The notes below the pieces were generated by a model. It worked only from the letters and a program-made list of their open reading frames with translations, made no database searches and was not told the origin of the DNA. A stretch of DNA of 10,688 bases from a virus (Duplodnaviria; Heunggongvirae; Uroviricota; Caudoviricetes). Location of the stretch: IMG/VR virus record IMGVR_UViG_2695420822_000015. One strand, given 5' to 3'. Made by a program: the position numbers and the translations under genes. Each line of letters begins with the position of its first letter. Position 1 is the stretch's first letter. Below are positions 998 to 10,688 of the stretch, piece by piece.

Positions 998-1288
998 TTA
1001 ACTGTTTTTGCCTGGATACTGTCTTCGAGAATGCACAATATTTACTACTTCTATGCTTGATGCTGTTACTCGGTAAAGGATGATGTAGTTAGGATGAGTT
1101 ACAATTTCACGAAGACCAAGAACTCGCTCGCTTGGAGGATACAGGTAAGGATGCTCTGTGAGCGGCAAAACGGATGTTTCAATTCGAATTTTCATTCTGC
1201 GTGCTGCCGCGGGATTTTCTTTAGCTATGTAGGCTACGATCTGGCGCAAATCATCACGAGCAGATGGTAGCCATAAAACGGGTAACAT
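998..1288 (-). CDS. parE: Type II toxin, RelE/ParE superfamily (ParE-like), 96 aa
   Basis: Sequence has the ParE-like pattern (N-terminal LWLPSARDDLRQIVAYIAKENPAAARR; core ILYRV...IEVVNIVHSRRQY). ATG overlaps the antitoxin stop as TAATG at 1286-1290. Third gene of a repressor-antitoxin-toxin operon, as in the paaR-paaA-parE modules described in E. coli O157:H7 prophages. Confidence 0.85.
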   Translation of the reverse strand: MLPVLWLPSARDDLRQIVAYIAKENPAAARRMKIRIETSVLPLTEHPYLYPPSERVLGLREIVTHPNYIILYRVTASSIEVVNIVHSRRQYPGKNS

Positions 1289-1482
1289 TATTCACCTCTG
1301 TGAGTTGCAGCAGCAATTTGGGCAATAATTTGTTCCATTTCCGCCATTACCTCATCATGCGGAATCGCCGGGCGGGGATCCGCGAGGCTTGCTGCTACTT
1401 TGGCCCGCAGCCATTCGTTGTAACTATTTTCTTGCTCAACTGTCTCAAATTCTGAAACCATTGGGGAAAGGACTGTACTCAT
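1288..1482 (-). CDS. Small acidic antitoxin partner of ParE (64 aa, PaaA-like)
   Basis: 64-aa acidic protein immediately upstream of, and overlapping, the toxin gene. SD GAGGAG about 9 nt upstream of ATG (1482-1480). Position and size fit a ParD/PaaA-type antitoxin; identity inferred from context, not from a recognised motif. Confidence 0.7.
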   Translation of the reverse strand: MSTVLSPMVSEFETVEQENSYNEWLRAKVAASLADPRPAIPHDEVMAEMEQIIAQIAAATHRGE

Positions 1483-1501
1483 TTTACATATCTCCTCTGA
1501 T

Positions 1502-2032
1502 TTAGGCGCGACGGCCTTTTTGTGCAGCTAACCACCGCGCAACCGTACGATCCATTGATTCTTTTTTATCTTTCATCTCCTGAAGCATGTGTTCTTGATC
1601 TTCTTTCGGAAAAGCTCTGAACGTATGGATTAAATCTCGTTCCATCGGCTCTACGGCAAACGGTAGTTCATCCTCTGTTTGTTCTGTGTCTGCTGGTAAT
1701 GCGACTATGTTATCTTGCTGTGGTTCTCGACAATACATCCTTGCAATTTGCAGCAAATCTACCATGTCTGGCCTGATTGACTCAGGGGGAACTTTCAGTA
1801 AGCCAGCAAACTTTAGAACAGCCTCAAGGTTTAGTGGGGTTTGACCATTTAGGTAGTGACTTACCGCCCCTTGTGTTGAAAACCCCATAATTTCCGCCGC
1901 ACGTTCCTGAGTCAATCCCAACTGAGATTTCTTTGCCATCCAGATTTCTTTCAGTCTTCTGGCGGCGTTGAGGTCGGTGTCTGACAATGATTTTCTTTTC
2001 ATACATCCAATTCTAATAAGATTGCTAATCAC
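1502..2032 (-). CDS. cI-like HTH (XRE-family) repressor lacking an S24 peptidase domain (PaaR-like)
   Basis: N-terminal HTH segment LGLTQERAAEIMGFSTQGAVSHYLNGQ resembles lambda cI/XRE DNA-binding domains. No Ala-Gly/Ser...Lys autocleavage motifs seen. Track start is GTG at 2032; ATG at 2002-2000 with almost no leader or SD is the more likely start (leaderless, as for lambda cI from PRM). 19-bp gap to the antitoxin gene. Confidence 0.8.
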   Translation of the reverse strand: MISNLIRIGCMKRKSLSDTDLNAARRLKEIWMAKKSQLGLTQERAAEIMGFSTQGAVSHYLNGQTPLNLEAVLKFAGLLKVPPESIRPDMVDLLQIARMYCREPQQDNIVALPADTEQTEDELPFAVEPMERDLIHTFRAFPKEDQEHMLQEMKDKKESMDRTVARWLAAQKGRRA

Positions 2033-3941: not shown

Positions 3942-4719
3942 ATGAAAAACATTGCGGCAGCCGGGGTTCTTGAACGTATTCACAGACTTGCACCACAGGG
4001 GGCGGTTCCACCGTACCGGACGGTGGAGGAGTGGCGGGGGNNNNNNNNNNNNNNNNNNNNNNNNNNNNGAATGGCAACTTGCTGAAGGACGAAAACGCAG
4101 CGAGGAGATTAACCGCCAGAATCGCCAGTTGCGGGTGGAAAAAATCCTGAATCGTTCGGGCATCCAGCCTCTGCACAGCAAATGCTCGTTTGCGAATTAT
4201 CAGGTGCAGAACGACGGGCAAAAATACGCGCTGAGCCAGGCCAAATCCATAGCTGACGAACTGATGACCGGGTGCACGAATTTTGTGTTCAGCGGTAAAA
4301 CCGGCACCGGGAAAAATCACCTTGCAGCGGCGATGGGTAACCGGCTGATGGCGAAGGGGCGCAGCGTGATTATCGTCACCGAGTCTGATGTCATGAGCGT
4401 GTTGCATGACAGCTACGACAACGGCAAATCCGGTGAAAAATTTTTACAGGAGCTTTGTGGTGTTGACCTGCTGGTCCTGGATGAAATTGGCATGCAGCGG
4501 GATACGAAAAACGAGCAGGTGGTACTGAACCAGATTGTTGATCGCCGGACGGCATCGTTACGCGGTGTGGGGATGCTGACAAATATTAACCATGCAGCGA
4601 TGAATACACTTCTCGGCGAGCGGGTGATGGATCGCATGGTCATGAACGGCGGGCGCTGGGTGAATTTTAACTGGGAGAGCTGGCGTCCGAATGTTAGCCA
4701 TTCGAGGGTTGTTAAGTAG
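3942..4719 (+). CDS. DnaC-like helicase loader (phage replication protein, AAA+/IstB-like), interrupted by assembly gap
   Basis: Walker A FSGKTGTGKNHLAAA, Walker B DLLVLDEIG; C-terminal LGERVMDRM closely resembles E. coli DnaC. ATG 3942 (MKNIAAAGVLERIHRL...) lies 6 nt after the O-like stop. The track's TTG 3952 start is in another frame and is an artefact of the 28-N gap. Confidence 0.8.
4041..4068. other. Assembly gap (28 N) inside the dnaC-like gene
   Basis: Run of N; gap length is not a multiple of 3, so the reading frame across it is undefined. Confidence 0.95.
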
Positions 4720-4750
4720 TTTCAGGAGGATTTATGGCGAAACCTTTTAN

Positions 4751-5154
4751 ATCACTTAGCGGCAGCTATCGGGAATCGCCTGCTGAAAGACGGTCAGACA
4801 GTGATTGTGGTTACCGTGGCTGATGTTATGAGCGCCCTGCACGCCAGCTATGACGACGGGCAGTCAGGCGAAAAATTTTTGCGGGAGCTGTGCGAAGTGG
4901 ATCTGCTGGTTCTTGATGAAATTGGCATTCAGCGCGAGACGAAAAACGAGCAGGTGGTGCTGCACCAGATTGTTGATCGCCGGACAGCGTCGATGCGCAG
5001 CGTGGGGATGCTGACAAACCTGAACTATGAGGTGATGAAAACATTGCTCGGCGAGCGGGTGATGGATCGCATGGTCATGAACGGCGGGCGCTGGGTGAAT
5101 TTTAACTGGGAGAGCTGGCGTCCGAATGTTAGCCATTCGAGGGTTGTTAAGTAG
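4751..5154 (+). pseudogene. Second, 5'-truncated copy of the dnaC-like 3' region (fragment; likely chimeric join)
   Basis: Starts in-frame at ..NHLAAAIGNRLLKDGQ.. right after a single N (4750) that interrupts the start of the downstream gene (ATGGCGAAACCTTTTA, 4735-4749). Segment 4610-4749 is identical to 5045-5184. Confidence 0.6.
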
Positions 5155-5168
5155 TTTCAGGAGGATTT

Positions 5169-5353
5169 ATGGCGAAACCTTTTACTCCCGAACAGCGGGA
5201 AGAACTGAAGACGCGAATTGTGGAACTCGTGCATCAGGACGGTCGGGTCACGATTCGGCAGTTGTCAGATGAAACAGGTATCAGTCGTGCGTCTGTCGGT
5301 CGCTTATGCATAGAACTGGTCGCAAGTGGTGATGTATATAATTCTGGCTACGG
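5169..5353 (+). CDS. Hypothetical winged-helix-like protein, 5' portion only (truncated at N 5354)
   Basis: RBS AGGAGGA then ATG 5169 (MAKPFTPEQREELKTRIVELV...GISRASVGRLCIELVASGDVYNSGY). Reading frame is broken at the N junction, where sequence switches into a dnaC fragment. Confidence 0.5.
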
Positions 5354-5354
5354 N

Positions 5355-5599
5355 TCCTGGATGAAATAGGCATTCAGCGGGAGACGAAAAACGAGCAGGT
5401 GGTATTGCACCAGATAATTGATCGCCGGACAGCATCACTGTGCAGTGTCGGGATGTTAACAAACCTGAATCATGCCGCAATGAGCACGCTTCTTGGTGAG
5501 AGGATTATGGACCGCATGACCATGAACGGTTGTCGGTGGGTGACGTTTAACTGGGATAGCTGGCGTTCAAATGTCAGCTTTCCGGGAGTTGTGAAGTAA
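5355..5599 (+). pseudogene. Third, 5'-truncated dnaC-like 3' fragment (divergent allele)
   Basis: Encodes ..LDEIGIQRETKNEQVVLHQIIDRRTASLCSVGMLTNLNHAAMSTLLGERIMDRMTMNGCRWVTFNWDSWRSNVSFPGVVK*. Begins immediately after N 5354. C-terminus differs from copies 1 and 2. Confidence 0.6.
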
Positions 5600-5620
5600 T
5601 TTTTGTTGGAGGATGTTTTA

Positions 5621-6346
5621 ATGGAAACTGTATTTGACGCACTGAAAGCACTGAAAAGAGCCTCTTCACATGTGGTGGCGTCCCGCCTTGGAATCAGCCG
5701 TGAAGATGCGGTCAACGAACTGTGGAAACTGAAGCGCCGTGGTGAAGCGGATAACAAGGGTTCGATGTGGTGGCTGATTCAGGCTGGTGAAAGTGAACCA
5801 GTGTCACCGGTACCGAAAGTGACAGCGCAAATGCTGACTGAGGCGATTGAACAACATGGCCCACAAACGGCGGATGAGCTGGCACTGATGTTCGGGATTA
5901 CCTCCCGCCGGGCGAATTCATCGCTGGCCATGGCAATCAGCAAAGGGCGTCTGATTCGCGTGAATCAGGGCGGTAAATTTCGGTACTGCATACCGGGCGC
6001 TGATTTACCGGCAGAGCCGAAAGCCGCATCCATAGCGGAAACGGATGGTAAAGTCTTTCCTCAGCCAGCAGGTGTTGCGTTACCGGTACAGGAAGCTGCA
6101 ACACAGGAAGAAATTAAAACAGAAACTGTGGCGGACATTGTGCAGTCGTTGCCATCGTTCACCGAAACGCAAGCGGATGACCTGGTTTTACCATCGCTGC
6201 ATATGGCAAACCGCGAACTGCGTCGGGCGAAAAGTCATGTCCAGAAGTGGGAGCGTGTCTGCGCCGCGTTGCGGGAGCTGAACAAGCACCGGGATATTGT
6301 TCGACAGATTGTCGATTCCTCCGGTCGTATTGTGTCGGAAAAGTGA
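5621..6346 (+). CDS. Hypothetical phage protein with two putative winged-helix-like segments (241 aa)
   Basis: GGAGGA SD 7 nt upstream of ATG 5621 (track start TTG 5603 is in the same frame). Follows the third dnaC fragment. Segments [22 protein letters not shown] and [31 protein letters not shown] resemble the wHTH of the neighbouring gene family. Confidence 0.6.
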
Positions 6347-6361
6347 TTGCCGGGGGCGCTT

Positions 6362-6501
6362 ATGGCAAAAGTATTTACACAGGAAGAGCGGGAAAAAATT
6401 AAGGGGCAGGTTGTTGAACTCGTACGCCAGAGTGGGCGCGAGACGTTACGACAACTGGAAGCTAAAACCGGGGCGACAAGATATTTAATAAGCGTTCTCG
6501 C
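6362..6501 (+). CDS. Hypothetical winged-helix-like protein, 5' portion (runs into 63-N gap)
   Basis: ATG 6362, MAKVFTQEEREKIKGQVVELVRQSGRETLRQLEAKTGATRYLISVL; paralogue of 5169..5353. Truncated by the gap. Confidence 0.5.
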
Positions 6502-6564
6502 NNNNNNNNNNNNNNNNNNNNNNNNNNNNNNNNNNNNNNNNNNNNNNNNNNNNNNNNNNNNNNN
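6502..6564. other. Assembly gap (63 N)
   Basis: Run of N. Confidence 0.95.
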
Positions 6565-6611
6565 ATTCTATTTCAGGAAGGAGTGTCCGTTAAACTCAGG
6601 CTACCTCAAAA

Positions 6612-6998
6612 ATTAAAGGGCAGGTTGTTGAACTTGTACGTCTGAGCGGTCGCGAGACGTTGCGGCAACTGGAAGCCAAGACAGGTGCGACAAGATATCT
6701 GATGAGTGTTCTCGCCAGAGAGCTGGTTGCCAGTGGCGATGTATACAACTCTGGTTACGGGTTATTCCCGTCTGAACAGGCGCGTAAGGACTGGCAAAAC
6801 GCCCGCAAAAAACTCTCAAGGGCAAATCTGAAGAAACCATCTGTGGTTGATCCTGACCTTATCTGGTCATTACCAGACGGAGAAATACGCCGCTACGACA
6901 GGCGTCAAAACATAATCTGTAGCGAGTGCCGGAAGAGTGAAGTTATGCAGCGTGTACCGGCTTTCTATCAGGGTGATTTTCAGGAGGCGGTACTGTGA
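6612..6998 (+). CDS. Hypothetical winged-helix-like protein, 3' portion (5' end lost at gap/junction)
   Basis: In-frame IKGQVVELVRLSGRETLRQLEAKTGATRYLMSVLARELVASGDVYNSGYGLFPSEQARKDW...QGDFQEAVL*. Overlaps the pre-gap copy by about 32 aa with substitutions (Q to L, I to M), so the two pieces are different alleles. In-frame stop at 6591-6593 upstream. Confidence 0.5.
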   Translation: MKGQVVELVRLSGRETLRQLEAKTGATRYLMSVLARELVASGDVYNSGYGLFPSEQARKDWQNARKKLSRANLKKPSVVDPDLIWSLPDGEIRRYDRRQNIICSECRKSEVMQRVPAFYQGDFQEAVL

Positions 6999-7055
6999 GT
7001 GAAATTAGCTATCAGGCTTCAATTACCGCTGGCATTCGCATCAAAGGAGAGGAGC

Positions 7056-7412
7056 ATGGAAATAAAACCAGAAGATGAGTTAAGCAATATTGTTTTATTT
7101 CCGGTAAAAGAGGATAACCCTCGTAATCAGGTTAATTTTCTTTATGAGCCATCGGAAAGACCATATTGCCATCACGCCTCTGTCCGGGTTGACGAAAAAG
7201 AGCGTCAGGTCCGCTGTAAAATTTGCGGTGCAGTTGTGGAGCCATTTGACTGGATGCTCTCTGTGGCGAAAAGAGAAACCAGACTGGCAGATGATGTAAG
7301 GCTCTTGCGCCAGGAGGAGCGGGAAAGGCGAAAAAATATAGAAAAGCTAATCCAGATTGAGCGTAATGCGAAAGCGCGGATACGCAGGGTGACAAAATAT
7401 AGCCCCGAATAA
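7056..7412 (+). CDS. Hypothetical zinc-ribbon-like protein (118 aa)
   Basis: Strong SD GGAGAGGAG before ATG 7056. Motif Y-C-H-H...(14)...C-K-I-C suggests a Cys/His metal-binding knuckle. Basic, Arg/Glu-rich C-terminal tail that may be helical. Confidence 0.55.
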   Translation: MEIKPEDELSNIVLFPVKEDNPRNQVNFLYEPSERPYCHHASVRVDEKERQVRCKICGAVVEPFDWMLSVAKRETRLADDVRLLRQEERERRKNIEKLIQIERNAKARIRRVTKYSPE

Positions 7413-7626: not shown

Positions 7627-9459
7627 ATGGCCCGCATGTTTGATACATTAGGATTTTACATTATGAATGTGCAACATTTTGATTTTTTTACAGATAATGA
7701 GTTTTCTAATCTGGAAAGATATCAAACTTGTAAAGCCATGGCCAAAGGTTATGCGGGCAATTACAAAACCGGGCAGTCAAGGTTGATGCATGCCCGCTCA
7801 TACTGCTTCAGCATCGTAGCTGCATATTGGGATACCCTTGCAAAAAAGCAAAAAAGCAGCATTAAAATGAGGGCAGTACCGCACACTGTTTACATAGAAG
7901 ACATTCCATGTGATGCACGCGAGCTCGCTGAACGAACAGGTGAGCTTATTGCTCAATTTCCGGCGGAGGACGCTGGATATCTGATTGGGTCAATTTATAC
8001 GGTAATGCTGCCATCCGCTTACCGTTCGGAATTGGGGGCTTACTATACCCCCCCACCTTTGGTAGCGCGTCTCTTGGACCTGGCTGAAAAGTCTGGTGTT
8101 GATTTTTCTCATGCATCGGTTATTGATCCTGCGTGTGGTGGCGGTGCATTTTTGGCACCAGTAGCCATTCGAATGTTAAAAAAAGACAAGGGGCCTTCCC
8201 CTGAATGGATGTTGAGGAGAATCAGTCGTCGTTTAAAGGGGATAGAAATCGATCCATTTGCGGCTTGGATGAGTTTGGTATTGCTCGAATCTGTACTAAT
8301 GCCACTATGTGTAAAGGTAAAACGTAGATTGCCTGAAGATACAATTATTGTTGCTGATGCGCTTCAGCAAGATAAATTTTCTGGTTATGATCTTGTGGTA
8401 GGGAATCCGCCTTACGGACGTGTCACTCTCGATATTAAAACGAGAGAAAAATATTCTCGTTCGTTATTTGGTCATGCAAATCTATATGGATTGTTCACCG
8501 ACTTAGCTGTTCGCATGGTTAAAGAGAAAACAGGAGTTATTGCATTTCTTACGCCAACTTCTTTTCTTGGTGGGCAGTATTTCACCGCGCTGCGAACCCT
8601 TTTGACCGAAAAAACTACTCCGTATGCCCTTGATTTCGTCACTGACAGGGATGGGGTCTTTGACGATGTTCTCCAGGAAACAATGTTGACAGCATTCAAG
8701 GCGGGAGAACATAAAGTTCGGGCCCAGGTATCCTCACTTGTCCCTAAGGGGTTGAACAAAGCAAAAATTGAGAAAATAGGTAATGTTGATATAGAAAAAG
8801 GTGGAGCAACGTGGCTTTTGCCACGCGTTAAAGATGATGCCTGTTTTCTTAATGTATTAAAACAGATGTCTACGCGTTTAGCTGATCTGGGATACTCAGT
8901 CTCTACAGGTCAGTTAGTCTGGAATCGATTTAAGTCGCAGTTGCGTACGACGAAAGGAAAAAATAGCTACCCATTAGTCTGGGCGGAATCAATAACTTCA
9001 GCTGGTTTTCGTTTTAGTGCAGACAGAAAAAATCATGTTCCCTATATCGATATAACCCCACAACAGGGTTTCCTTGTGACAAAATCTGAATGTGTGCTTG
9101 TTCAGCGGACAACATCGAAGGAACAGGACAGAAGGATTTTAGCGGCAATTTTACCTCAGGGATTTATAGATGAAACTGGTGGCGTAGTAGTTGAAAACCA
9201 TATTAATATTGTATATTCAAACGGATTGTTCTCTGCGGTTCGCCCTGATGTTATTGATATGCTACTTAATTCGCATGTTGTCGATCGGGCGTTCAGGTGT
9301 ATAAGCGGAAGTGTTGCTGTTTCGGCCTATGAATTGAATTCAATCCCGTTGCCTTCTCTGGAGCAGGTGATGGAGATTCAATCGTTAATTGATGCTGGCG
9401 TCCACAGACGGATTATTGAGAGAACTATCGCTGGTTTCTATGGAGTGATGATTGCATGA
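7627..9459 (+). CDS. N6-adenine DNA methyltransferase, gamma class (Eco57I/TaqI-like motif order)
   Basis: Motif X GAYYTPPPLVARLLDL, motif I IDPACGGGAFL (SAM binding), motif IV VVGNPPYG, in the order X-I-IV. About 130-aa N-terminal extension and about 280-aa C-terminal region (presumed target recognition). AT-rich codon usage. Start could be ATG 7627, 7636 or 7663. Confidence 0.85.
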   Translation: MARMFDTLGFYIMNVQHFDFFTDNEFSNLERYQTCKAMAKGYAGNYKTGQSRLMHARSYCFSIVAAYWDTLAKKQKSSIKMRAVPHTVYIEDIPCDARELAERTGELIAQFPAEDAGYLIGSIYTVMLPSAYRSELGAYYTPPPLVARLLDLAEKSGVDFSHASVIDPACGGGAFLAPVAIRMLKKDKGPSPEWMLRRISRRLKGIEIDPFAAWMSLVLLESVLMPLCVKVKRRLPEDTIIVADALQQDKFSGYDLVVGNPPYGRVTLDIKTREKYSRSLFGHANLYGLFTDLAVRMVKEKTGVIAFLTPTSFLGGQYFTALRTLLTEKTTPYALDFVTDRDGVFDDVLQETMLTAFKAGEHKVRAQVSSLVPKGLNKAKIEKIGNVDIEKGGATWLLPRVKDDACFLNVLKQMSTRLADLGYSVSTGQLVWNRFKSQLRTTKGKNSYPLVWAESITSAGFRFSADRKNHVPYIDITPQQGFLVTKSECVLVQRTTSKEQDRRILAAILPQGFIDETGGVVVENHINIVYSNGLFSAVRPDVIDMLLNSHVVDRAFRCISGSVAVSAYELNSIPLPSLEQVMEIQSLIDAGVHRRIIERTIAGFYGVMIA

Positions 9460-10538
9460 ATCTGCCTGTTGTTCCCCCATTGAATGTTATCCGGGAAAGA
9501 TTACAATTAATTTTCCCTGAAGGGACTGAGAATCGTGGATATTTAATTCGGGAAATAGCTGCAAAAACAATTTTTGTCATGTTTTATGCTGGTGCGGTTG
9601 AGGGGCTGGGGCGATGGATAAGGCCCAGCCAGGTTGTAAGTATGGGAGATTCGCAGGCTGCTCTTACTGATGATGCGTCCAGAGAAAGCTGGGTAAAGAT
9701 GACTTTCTCTAAACAAAAGATAAGGCCTGCTGATGCATGGTATGCGGAAAATACGCGTGAGCCAATACGTGATGAAACTATAAAAAATGGCCTAATACCT
9801 TGCAATGCAATTGTTGAGCGTAAAGGTATACCCACCACATCCTCTCGTCCTCGTTACAGTTTGAATCGCTCTTTTGCAGCACTCTTTGATGCCGGGCTTG
9901 AAGGAGATTCGCTGCTGAGTGCAATAAGTTCCTGGCAAGAAAATCATTTGAACAAAGCCGCTCTTGCTAGGTTGCGTTTATTGAAATCAGGGGCAGTGAT
10001 TGCTGCTGATGCCGTAGTCGTCACTTTCCCAAATGGAGAGAAGAGAACTTTAGCTCCGGGCCCGTCAAGTACAATAGCTAAGGCCGTCATCGAAGTTTTT
10101 GCTCCTAATTTTCTTAAGAATCCAACTGTGCTCTGGTTGTCTGAATCCGGGAATAAAGTTGTTGCTCAGGATGATGTATTGGCAAAAGCATTGGGGCTGA
10201 ATATTGATGCCTCAAAAGCACTTCCAGATATTATTTTGATTGATTTGGGAGAGGACCGAACGGGTTCGGACATGCTTGTAGTTTTCACTGAAGTAGTTGC
10301 GACAGATGGGCCTATAAACAGGGAACGAAAAGTTACTCTCACTCATTTGGCTATTGACGCTGGGTTCAGCGAGAAAAATCTTGCATTCCTTACGGCATTT
10401 ATGGACAGAAGTGCTCTGCCTTTTAAAAAGGCAATACCAGAATTGGCGTGGGGATCTTATGCATGGTTTGCTTCTGAACCGGAGCACTTAATTGATCTTC
10501 GGGATGGTTATCCGGTAAAGATCAGCCAGAGAAAATGA
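9456..10538 (+). CDS. MTase-coupled partner protein (360 aa); putative restriction endonuclease or other effector, family unassigned
   Basis: ATG overlaps the MTase stop (ATGA 9456-9459); GGAG about 10 nt upstream. Same AT-rich composition as the MTase. No Walker motif, HNH or clear PD-(D/E)xK triad identified by eye; candidate acidic cluster IDLGED...FTEVV. Confidence 0.55.
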   Translation: MNLPVVPPLNVIRERLQLIFPEGTENRGYLIREIAAKTIFVMFYAGAVEGLGRWIRPSQVVSMGDSQAALTDDASRESWVKMTFSKQKIRPADAWYAENTREPIRDETIKNGLIPCNAIVERKGIPTTSSRPRYSLNRSFAALFDAGLEGDSLLSAISSWQENHLNKAALARLRLLKSGAVIAADAVVVTFPNGEKRTLAPGPSSTIAKAVIEVFAPNFLKNPTVLWLSESGNKVVAQDDVLAKALGLNIDASKALPDIILIDLGEDRTGSDMLVVFTEVVATDGPINRERKVTLTHLAIDAGFSEKNLAFLTAFMDRSALPFKKAIPELAWGSYAWFASEPEHLIDLRDGYPVKISQRK

Positions 10539-10688
10539 CCAAAGTTTGATATCCGCCACGCCCTGAAGGATGGGGGTTTTACGGTGCACTGGATAAAAAA
10601 TCGGTTTCATAGATTTGCCCACCGTGGTATACGCCTGCGATAAAAACTTTATTGTCATCAACGGCAAAAGCAATAATTGTTCTGTGGC
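10488..10688 (-). CDS. Hypothetical ORF, 5' end beyond window; doubtful
   Basis: Minus-strand frame is open from the window edge to the stop at about 10488. It overlaps the 3' end of the 9456..10538 gene by 51 bp (convergent). No family recognised. Confidence 0.2.
   Translation of the reverse strand, partial: ATEQLLLLPLMTIKFLSQAYTTVGKSMKPIFYPVHRKTPILQGVADIKLWSFSLADLYRITIPKIN

What the first reader, a model, noticed from the sequence alone, without database searches (positions are those of the whole stretch)
7627..10538. AT-rich two-gene cassette: gamma-class N6-adenine methyltransferase coupled to an unrecognised 360-aa partner
The two genes overlap by ATGA, so they are almost certainly co-translated as one unit. 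The first has unambiguous SAM-binding (DPACGGGAFL) and catalytic (NPPY) motifs in gamma-class order. Sampled 60-bp stretches are about 35% G+C here versus about 58% in the replication genes (two hand counts, not a full calculation), which suggests a horizontally acquired moron. MTase-first gene order with overlap fits a type II restriction-modification or related defence module, but the partner could not be placed in any nuclease family, so this may be a non-canonical or undescribed system.
Basis: partly seen in the sequence, partly recalled or inferred. Interest (0 to 1): 0.8.

Follow-up and report, generated by a model that had tools for sequence, protein, structure and literature searches.

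The report
Prophage PstI-family restriction-modification gene pair
The two overlapping genes are an ordinary, already annotated type II restriction-modification system (an adenine methyltransferase plus a BsuBI/PstI-family restriction endonuclease) carried as cargo on a lambdoid prophage of Shigella sonnei, not an undescribed defence system.

Summary
ORFs 7627-9459 (610 aa) and 9456-10538 (360 aa) overlap by ATGA. The first has DPACGGGAFL (aa 167) and NPPY (aa 260) in gamma-class order. The G+C contrast is real but overstated: 43.6% in the cassette against 54.7% in the replication gene, not 35% against 58%.

The "unrecognised partner" is recognised. It matches both Pfam domains of the BsuBI/PstI restriction endonuclease family (E = 1e-30 and 9e-45), a PADLOC type II REase model over its full length (426 bits), and the solved SdaI structure by sequence and by fold.

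The window is a Shigella sonnei contig. The exact endonuclease sequence occurs on at least 1000 public contigs, and RefSeq already names it "BsuBI/PstI family type II restriction endonuclease". The methylase-then-endonuclease pair is conserved in Serratia (P2-like prophage), Arenimonas (beside Tn7-like genes) and Burkholderia, always at lower G+C than its flanks, so it is mobile cargo.

Both proteins are only about 25% identical to the CTGCAG-specific EcoGIII-like pair of Stx2 phages. I could not determine the recognition sequence of this subfamily.

Verdict: a canonical, already catalogued type II R-M system of low interest.

The parts
7627..9459 (+). Gamma-class N6-adenine DNA methyltransferase gene. 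The ORF as listed is 610 aa; the likely true start is ATG 7663, giving 598 aa.
   Evidence: ORF. Pfam Eco57I 1.7e-13 and N6_Mtase 3.6e-09. PADLOC MTase_II PDLC03338, 994 bits over residues 7-608. TaqI methyltransferase and type I M subunits are the PDB relatives. RefSeq WP_000113425.1 sits at the same place in NZ_CP065615.1.
7650..7665 (+). AGGA (7650-7653) followed 9 nt later by ATG 7663. This is the probable ribosome-binding site and real start of the methyltransferase.
   Evidence: Sequence. The Serratia homologue starts at the aligned Met. 598-aa versions are annotated in the same 90% cluster. This is an inference.
8125..8154 (+). Motif I, the SAM-binding loop DPACGGGAFL (residues 167-176).
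   Evidence: D167, G171, G173 and A174 are invariant in the alignment with three subfamily homologues and the EcoGIII-like methylase.
8404..8415 (+). Motif IV, the catalytic NPPY (residues 260-263).
   Evidence: N260, P261, P262 and Y263 are invariant in alignment A1.
9442..9459 (+). Gene junction: GGAG (9442-9445) lies 10 nt before the endonuclease ATG (9456-9458), which overlaps the methylase stop TGA (9457-9459).
   Evidence: Sequence. Translational coupling is inferred, not shown.
9456..10538 (+). BsuBI/PstI-family type II restriction endonuclease gene (360 aa).
   Evidence: Pfam PF17728 1.2e-30 and PF06616 9.3e-45, both well above the 27-bit cut-offs. PADLOC REase_II PDLC03589, 426 bits over residues 3-351. 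SdaI 2ixs E = 1.8e-16. SdaI is the only significant Foldseek PDB hit. RefSeq WP_001053102.1.
9483..9971 (+). N-terminal helix-turn-helix DNA-binding domain of the endonuclease (residues 10-172).
   Evidence: Pfam BsuBI_PstI_RE_N match, residues 10-172 to profile positions 2-136 of 140.
10017..10502 (+). C-terminal PD-(D/E)XK catalytic domain (residues 188-349), with P257-D258 (10224-10229) and E279 (10290-10292).
   Evidence: Pfam BsuBI_PstI_RE match. The query's PD and E align with SdaI P232-D233 and E248. D258 and E279 are invariant in 44 subfamily members and present in the EcoGIII-like enzyme.

Best explanation
This is a canonical two-gene type II restriction-modification system of the BsuBI/PstI family. 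It is carried as cargo (a moron) between the replication genes and the late-gene regulator region of a lambdoid prophage of Shigella sonnei.

Inferred mechanism, from the families involved:
- The upstream gamma-class methyltransferase uses SAM to methylate N6 of an adenine in a short specific DNA site on the host and prophage genome.
- The downstream endonuclease binds the same site through its N-terminal helix-turn-helix domain.
- It cleaves the site with a Mg2+-dependent PD-(D/E)XK centre (D258, E279) when the site is unmethylated.
- Incoming phage or plasmid DNA is therefore cut.

The methylase-first order and the ATGA overlap, with a GGAG 10 nt upstream, probably couple endonuclease translation to methylase translation. 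Protection would then be made first and in excess. This too is inferred.

Loss of the pair would expose unmethylated sites to the remaining endonuclease, so the cassette would also stabilise the prophage that carries it.

The recognition sequence is not established. All characterised relatives I know of (PstI, BsuBI, EcoGIII, YenI, SdaI) recognise a CTGCAG core. This subfamily is only about 25% identical to them.
For: Shown here:
- ORFs, overlap and motifs.
- Methylase family assignment.
- Endonuclease family assignment by two Pfam domains, a PADLOC model, sequence match to SdaI and fold match to SdaI.
- Catalytic D258 and E279 are invariant across 44 homologues of 62-89% identity.
- No HsdS, HsdR, Res, helicase or BREX partner lies in the window or in 20 kb either side in the finished genome.
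- The same methylase-then-endonuclease pair is tightly juxtaposed in Burkholderia, Arenimonas and Serratia and in the CTGCAG-specific Stx2-phage system.
- The cassette has 7-13 points lower G+C than its flanks in every locus of the subfamily examined.
- In NZ_CP065615.1 the neighbouring cro, DnaC-like and Q genes are frameshifted and an IS21 sits in the head genes, yet both R-M genes are intact.
- The exact endonuclease sequence is on at least 1000 contigs, mostly S. sonnei.

From the literature:
- A PADLOC survey found 982 type II R-M systems in 994 S. sonnei genomes (PMC13293514). That these are this system is my inference.
- The related Stx2-prophage BsuBI/PstI system methylates CTGCAG and its endonuclease is active (PMC3893438).
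Against: - No activity, methylation motif or restriction phenotype was tested here.
- No sigma-70-like promoter was found in the 214-bp upstream spacer by the simple scan, so expression in the lysogen is not shown.
- Lys251 of SdaI aligns with Ala282 here. The same position is Thr in the EcoGIII-like enzyme, which PMC3893438 reports as biochemically active for a sequence 100% identical to that of strain C227-11. The Lys is therefore not a family requirement.
- The AlphaFold model is of only moderate confidence (mean pLDDT 66, with the catalytic core below 50). The fold match is supportive, not decisive.
- The window's methylase allele carries two substitutions (S190P, A339T) relative to the widespread allele. 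Both fall in columns that vary among homologues.
Confidence: 0.93

Rival explanations
1. The biochemistry is the same, but the main selected role is addiction rather than phage defence. The pair acts as a selfish stabilisation module: cells that lose the decaying prophage are killed by the remaining endonuclease. This would explain why it is nearly fixed in S. sonnei.
For: - Both R-M genes are intact while neighbouring prophage genes are frameshifted or interrupted by IS21.
- The cassette sits among other addiction modules: a ParE/PaaA2 pair at 998-1482 and a RelE/ParE-ParD pair just downstream.
- The exact endonuclease sequence is on at least 1000 contigs.
Against: - This is not exclusive of defence, since the same enzymes do both.
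- No stability or post-segregational killing data exist here.
- Near fixation in a young clonal species can be simple inheritance.
Confidence: 0.3
2. The endonuclease is inactive or silent in this host, and the methyltransferase works as an effectively solitary epigenetic methylase.
For: - No promoter-like site was found upstream.
- The SdaI Lys251 equivalent is Ala.
- S. sonnei is known for gene decay (established knowledge).
- Frameshifted endonucleases occur in related phage systems, for example ArgO145.
Against: - The endonuclease ORF is full length and identical to the widespread allele.
- D258 and E279, and about 90 other columns, are invariant across homologues from Enterobacterales to Burkholderiales and Lysobacterales. 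That indicates purifying selection on a working enzyme.
- Ala282 is invariant within the subfamily (visible as EVVATDGP in five of the six sequences), so it is not a lesion specific to this copy.
Confidence: 0.1
3. One reading: a non-canonical or undescribed defence system in which the methyltransferase is paired with a novel effector. BREX-, MADS- or type IIG-like arrangements would belong here.
For: Weak partial matches of the methylase domain to PglX and MAD2 models.
Against: - Those matches cover only the generic methylase core and fall far below cut-off (36.7 bits against 900 for BREX-6 PglX, 20.7 against 720 for MAD2).
- No other BREX or MADS genes are nearby.
- The partner is a full-length BsuBI/PstI endonuclease.
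Confidence: 0.02

Closest known systems
EcoGIII / BsuBI-PstI R-M system of Stx2a prophages (E. coli O104:H4 and O145:H28; recognition CTGCAG)
   Same: - It is also a prophage-borne pair in E. coli and Shigella.
- It has the same methylase-then-endonuclease order and a 4-bp overlap.
- The methylase is a gamma-class N6-adenine enzyme and the endonuclease has the same two Pfam domains.
- The proteins align over most of their length.
   Different: - Identity is only 25% (methylase) and 26% (endonuclease).
- The methylase here has an extra conserved N-terminal region of about 110-130 aa.
- The endonuclease here is about 43 aa longer.
- It sits after the replication genes rather than next to cI.
- Its specificity is unknown here.
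SdaI restriction endonuclease (PDB 2ixs; CCTGCAGG)
   Same: - It is the only solved structure that matches, by sequence (E = 1.8e-16) and by fold (Foldseek E = 4e-9).
- The architecture is the same: an N-terminal winged-helix domain plus a C-terminal PD-(D/E)XK domain.
- D233 and E248 of SdaI align with D258 and E279 here.
   Different: - Foldseek reports 20% identity over its full-length alignment.
- The phmmer match covers only residues 96-349.
- SdaI Lys251 is Ala here.
- TM-scores are low (0.27-0.30) because the model is weak.
YenI-type fused methylase-endonuclease (PstI isoschizomer of Yersinia enterocolitica). That the 838-840-residue models are YenI-type is my recollection, not tested.
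   Same: One long profile (PADLOC PDLC03359, 840 positions; phrog_1639, 838 positions) matches the methylase C-terminal half with its N-terminal part and the endonuclease with its C-terminal part. The two genes here therefore correspond to one fused polypeptide elsewhere.
   Different: Here the two activities are separate, overlapping genes, and the matches are distant (E = 1e-13 to 1e-29).

Membership tests
Type II restriction-modification system (separate M and R genes) | Adjacent genes for a DNA methyltransferase and a separate endonuclease, with no specificity, translocase or helicase subunit. | tested here: met
   ORFs 7627-9459 and 9456-10538. No HsdS, HsdR or Res-like genes in the window or in 20 kb either side in NZ_CP065615.1. 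The same two-gene unit appears in four other genomic contexts.
Type II restriction-modification system (separate M and R genes) | Site-specific cleavage that is blocked by the cognate methylation. | not testable with these tools
   This needs a methylome (SMRT or nanopore) and digestion or plaque assays.
Gamma-class N6-adenine DNA methyltransferase | Motif order: SAM-binding motif I (FxGxG-like), then catalytic motif IV (NPPY), then a C-terminal target-recognition domain. | tested here: met
   DPACGGGAFL at residue 167 and NPPY at residue 260. The C-terminal 270-600 region aligns with the TaqI/Eco57I/PstI-type region. The motif residues are invariant.
BsuBI/PstI restriction endonuclease family (Pfam PF17728 + PF06616) | Both family domains match above Pfam's curated cut-offs, in N-to-C order. 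| tested here: met
   PF17728 scores 106.6 bits and PF06616 scores 152.2 bits, each against a 27-bit cut-off.
BsuBI/PstI restriction endonuclease family (Pfam PF17728 + PF06616) | Acidic residues of the PD-(D/E)XK catalytic centre are conserved. | tested here: met
   P257-D258 and E279 align with SdaI P232-D233 and E248. They are invariant in 44 homologues and present in the EcoGIII-like enzyme.
BsuBI/PstI restriction endonuclease family (Pfam PF17728 + PF06616) | Catalytic lysine at the SdaI Lys251 position. | tested here: inconclusive
   The position is Ala282 here and throughout the subfamily (Ala282 is invariant; sequences). It is Thr in the CTGCAG-specific EcoGIII-like enzyme. The residue is therefore not conserved across the family, and the lysine may come from elsewhere.
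BsuBI/PstI restriction endonuclease family (Pfam PF17728 + PF06616) | Recognition of a CTGCAG core, as in PstI, BsuBI, EcoGIII and SdaI. | not testable with these tools
   Identity to characterised members is about 25%. No paper giving a motif for this subfamily was found in nine searches. REBASE was not available.
BREX (PglX methyltransferase) | Full-length PglX (about 1200 aa) above the model cut-off, together with other brx/pgl genes. | tested here: not met
   The best PglX match is 36.7 bits against a cut-off of 900 and covers only residues 252-369. No brx/pgl neighbours.
Type I R-M (the RefSeq name is 'HsdM family') | HsdM accompanied by HsdS and HsdR. | tested here: not met
   No HsdS or HsdR in the window or the flanking 40 kb. 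The similarity to type I M subunits is limited to the shared methylase core. The RefSeq name is generic.

The most novel reading that the evidence does not exclude
This roughly 598-aa methylase / 360-aa endonuclease subfamily is widespread. The BsuBI/PstI endonuclease family has 1004 cluster representatives at E <= 0.001 (180 at E <= 1e-30), and the best 120 full-length homologues found are 63-89% identical to this enzyme. It may recognise a sequence different from the CTGCAG and CCTGCAGG sites of all characterised family members. That would be a new specificity in the PstI family. Its near fixation on a decaying prophage may also shape which plasmids and phages S. sonnei can acquire.
Probability: 0.3. 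Interest if true: 0.3.

Novelty: already known. Interest (0 to 1): 0.1.

Why it matters
It matters little beyond correct annotation.

The pair is a standard type II R-M system. RefSeq already names it, and PADLOC models match it over its full length. A published survey finds about one type II system per S. sonnei genome.

Two things remain mildly useful:
- The recognition sequence of this divergent PstI-family subfamily could not be established here. It would tell which incoming plasmids and phages S. sonnei restricts.
- Both R-M genes stay intact on an otherwise decaying prophage, which illustrates how R-M and toxin-antitoxin cargo can outlive the phage that brought it.

Tried and rejected
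- **Recognition sequence from the literature.** Nine full-text searches and two supplement look-ups found no paper assigning a motif to this S. sonnei system or its subfamily. Only the distant Stx2-phage system (CTGCAG) is described. Fang et al. 2012 (PMC3879109) is not held.
- **Near-identical DNA in phage records.** None found. By protein, only the 27-28% identical Stx-phage homologues appear.
- **NCBIfam.** It has no specific model for the endonuclease.
- **AlphaFold model.** The alignment had 44 sequences, all at least 62% identical to the query. It gave only mean pLDDT 66, with the catalytic core below 50. I use the Foldseek result as support only and did not interpret active-site geometry.
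- **Promoter scan.** It found nothing convincing upstream of the methylase.
- **BREX, MADS, type IIG and type I readings.** Rejected, because the matches cover only the methylase core and partner genes are absent.
- **Palindrome-avoidance statistics.** I considered inferring the site this way but did not run it. S. sonnei is a young clone and only about 10-20 kb flanks per carrier genome are available, so the test would have no power.
- **Site counts in the window.** CTGCAG occurs 2 times, ATGCAT 6 times and CCTGCAGG 0 times. These are not informative, because a self-methylating element need not avoid its own site.
Full report
**1. What is in the sequence**

The window has two + strand ORFs at exactly the reported coordinates: 7627-9459 (610 aa) and 9456-10538 (360 aa). 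The sequence GCATGAAT at 9454-9461 places the second gene's ATG (9456-9458) over the first gene's TGA (9457-9459). A GGAG lies 10 nt upstream of that ATG.

The first protein carries DPACGGGAFL at residue 167 and NPPY at residue 260. A long C-terminal region follows, so the order is gamma-class.

Two details differ from the finding:

- **G+C.** The cassette is 43.6% G+C. The O-like replication gene is 54.7% and the DnaC-like gene 54.2% (profile). Only third-codon G+C is near 35% (37% and 36%, against 56%). The contrast is real but about half as large as claimed.
- **Methylase start.** The start is probably ATG 7663, not 7627. The evidence is:
  - The Serratia homologue begins at the aligned methionine.
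  - AGGA lies 9 nt upstream of 7663.
  - 598-aa versions are annotated in the same 90% cluster.
  - Homologues are 592-598 aa.

**2. What the two proteins are**

The methyltransferase:

- It matches Pfam Eco57I (1.7e-13) and N6_Mtase (3.6e-09).
- It matches one PADLOC type II methyltransferase model over its full length, at 994 bits.
- Its solved relatives are M.TaqI and type I M subunits, through the catalytic core.

- It matches both domains of the BsuBI/PstI restriction endonuclease family. These are the N-terminal HTH domain PF17728 (1.2e-30, 106.6 bits) and the catalytic domain PF06616 (9.3e-45, 152.2 bits), each against a 27-bit cut-off.
- It matches a PADLOC type II REase model over residues 3-351, at 426 bits.
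- It matches the crystal-structure sequence of SdaI (2ixs) at E = 1.8e-16.
- An AlphaFold model was only moderately confident (mean pLDDT 66). SdaI was still its only significant Foldseek hit in the PDB (E = 4e-9, probability 1.00).

SdaI and BsuBI are listed as PD-(D/E)XK nucleases under PF06616 in the superfamily survey PMC3424549.

The catalytic residues look like this:

- In the SdaI alignment, the query's P257-D258 and E279 fall on SdaI P232-D233 and E248.
- Both are invariant in 44 homologues of 62-89% identity.
- SdaI Lys251 corresponds to Ala282 here.
- Ala282 is invariant in those 44 homologues. The motif reads EVVATDGP in five of the six sequences shown.
- The same position is Thr in the CTGCAG-specific Stx2-phage enzyme, which reads ESVTSHGP.
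- The Lys is therefore not a family requirement, and its absence does not indicate decay.

**3. Where it comes from and how common it is**

- The exact methylase sequence is a Shigella sonnei protein (CSP68833.1 / WP_252861036.1), recorded on one contig of 10,688 bases, the same length as this window.
- The exact endonuclease sequence is on at least 1000 public contigs. It is named [quoted passage not shown].
- Among 5426 complete E. coli genomes, only two carry the cassette, at 99.9% and 99.3% identity.
- A published PADLOC survey reports 982 type II R-M systems in 994 S. sonnei genomes and notes that R-M content is highly uniform in the species (PMC13293514). That these are this cassette is my inference.

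In E. coli FDAARGOS_943 the cassette lies in a lambdoid prophage integrated beside potC. Its position and state there:

- It sits downstream of the replisome-organiser, DnaC-like, DUF977 and hypothetical genes.
- It sits upstream of a convergent RelE/ParE-ParD pair, DUF968, rusA and Q.
- In that record cro, the DnaC-like gene and Q are frameshifted, and an IS21 sits in the head genes.
- Both R-M genes are nevertheless intact there.

The window's methylase differs from the widespread allele at two variable positions (S190P, A339T). The endonuclease is identical.

**4. It is a mobile two-gene unit**

Homologues of the endonuclease at 63-89% identity occur across several orders. They were found in Kluyvera, Citrobacter, Serratia, Klebsiella, Pantoea, Erwinia, Burkholderia, Cupriavidus, Pseudomonas, Rhodocyclus and Arenimonas.

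An exhaustive search found 1004 cluster representatives (50% identity clusters) at E <= 0.001, and 180 at E <= 1e-30.

In three distant carriers the endonuclease is always preceded, on the same strand, by a 592-598-aa Eco57I-domain methylase:

| Carrier | Context |
|---|---|
| Burkholderia cepacia | Among non-phage chromosomal genes |
| Arenimonas | Next to TniB/TniQ (Tn7-like) |
| Serratia marcescens | P2-like prophage, between the gpA replication gene and the portal gene |

The junction varies among them: a 2-nt gap, a 13-nt overlap, and ATGA. Tight linkage is conserved, but the exact overlap is not.

In all three, the cassette is 7-13 G+C points below its flanks. In the window the difference is about 6 points against the rest of the window and 11 points against the O-like replication gene.

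**5. Relation to the known phage-borne PstI system**

Stx2a prophages of E. coli O104:H4, O145:H28 and O103 carry a BsuBI/PstI R-M. Its methylase, M.EcoGIII, methylates CTGCAG, and its endonuclease is biochemically active (PMC3893438, citing Fang et al. 2012).

That pair has the same gene order and a 4-bp overlap. It is only 25% (methylase) and 26% (endonuclease) identical to the pair here. It also lacks the conserved N-terminal region of about 110-130 aa found in this methylase subfamily.

One long profile matches the methylase here with its N-terminal part and the endonuclease with its C-terminal part (PADLOC PDLC03359 and phrog_1639). In some relatives the two activities are therefore fused. 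From memory, this corresponds to YenI-type enzymes. I did not test that.

**6. Mechanism**

- **Shown:** the gene pair, the motifs, family membership, the conserved acidic catalytic residues, and the absence of other subunits.
- **Inferred from the families:**
  - The methylase makes m6A in a short specific site on resident DNA.
  - The endonuclease binds the same site through its HTH domain and cuts it with Mg2+ when it is unmethylated.
  - Methylase-first order with overlapping stop and start and an internal GGAG couples endonuclease translation to methylase translation, which favours protection before restriction.
  - Loss of the cassette would be penalised by post-segregational killing. 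This would also stabilise the decaying prophage, alongside the neighbouring ParE-type toxin-antitoxin pairs.
- **Not established:** the recognition sequence, the promoter (none found by a simple scan), and activity in this strain.

**7. Rivals**

- **Addiction rather than defence.** This is compatible with the same biochemistry and cannot be separated here.
- **A silent or dead endonuclease.** This is unlikely, given the full-length ORF identical to the widespread allele and the strong conservation across orders.
- **A non-canonical defence system.** This is excluded. The BREX and MADS matches are generic methylase-core hits far below cut-off (36.7 against 900 bits, 20.7 against 720), and no partner genes are present.
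- **Type I.** The RefSeq name "HsdM family" is generic. There is no HsdS or HsdR nearby.

**8. Verdict**

The type II R-M and moron interpretation is right. The claim that carried the high score, an unrecognised partner and possibly an undescribed system, is wrong.

This is a canonical BsuBI/PstI-family type II R-M system. It is already annotated in RefSeq and matched by existing defence-system models. Interest is low.

The only open item of modest value is the recognition specificity of this divergent subfamily. A REBASE look-up or existing PacBio motif files would probably settle it at once.

Noticed in passing
window 3950-6720 (N runs at 4041-4068, 4750, 5354, 6502-6564): The 3' part of the DnaC-like gene occurs three times (4468-4722, 4903-5157, 5348-5602), at 91% and 79% identity and about 440-bp spacing. 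A DUF977-like small gene is also repeated across an N run (6394-6501 and 6608-6715, 85% identity). The finished genome NZ_CP065615.1 has one copy, and window 5354-6720 has no counterpart there. This is most likely a short-read scaffolding artefact that strings together paralogous prophage replication modules, but it could be a real mosaic.
   Followed up: partly
window 998-2032, - strand: Three co-directional genes: an HTH_3 regulator (1502-2032, 176 aa), a PaaA2-type antitoxin (1288-1482, Pfam PF21217, 3e-23) and a ParE toxin (998-1288, 1.8e-17). The layout resembles the three-component PaaR-PaaA-ParE toxin-antitoxin systems of E. coli O157 prophages (from memory). The HTH protein occupies the place where the prophage repressor would be expected. 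This region (883-2362) is not shared with the otherwise similar prophage of NZ_CP065615.1.
   Followed up: partly
window 10579-10688, - strand (runs off the window end): This is the C-terminal part of a RelE/ParE-family toxin gene, convergent with the endonuclease. In NZ_CP065615.1 its ParD antitoxin gene lies immediately beyond it, upstream on the same strand (L001 23180-23754). The R-M cassette is thus bracketed by two ParE-type toxin-antitoxin modules. The toxin gene alone is found at 88.5% identity in 16 other E. coli genomes that lack the R-M pair.
   Followed up: partly
L001 (NZ_CP065615.1) 16614-37059: The prophage carrying the cassette is decaying. Its cro, DnaC-like ATPase and antiterminator Q genes are annotated as frameshifted, and an IS21 (istA/istB) interrupts the head-tail module. 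The methylase and endonuclease genes remain intact.
   Followed up: no
window 7627-7665: Three in-frame ATGs (7627, 7636, 7663) could start the methyltransferase. Only 7663 has a good Shine-Dalgarno (AGGA 7650-7653), and it matches the start of the Serratia homologue. Public annotations are split between 610 and 598 aa.
   Followed up: yes
window 8194 and 8641: This contig's methyltransferase differs from the widespread allele WP_000113425.1 by S190P and A339T. Both fall in columns that vary among homologues. According to the cluster table, this exact variant was seen on one contig only.
   Followed up: yes
L008 (Serratia marcescens AP028506.1) 4208-7083: A 75% identical copy of the same R-M pair sits in a P2-like prophage, between the gpA replication gene and the portal and terminase genes. 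The same cassette is therefore cargo of two unrelated temperate phage types.
   Followed up: no
window 5603-6346 (+) and 6999-7412 (+): A DUF1627 protein (247 aa, Pfam 3.9e-93) and a 137-aa protein with a weak zinc-ribbon match (E = 2e-4, below the cut-off) lie just upstream of the cassette. Their function is unknown.
   Followed up: no
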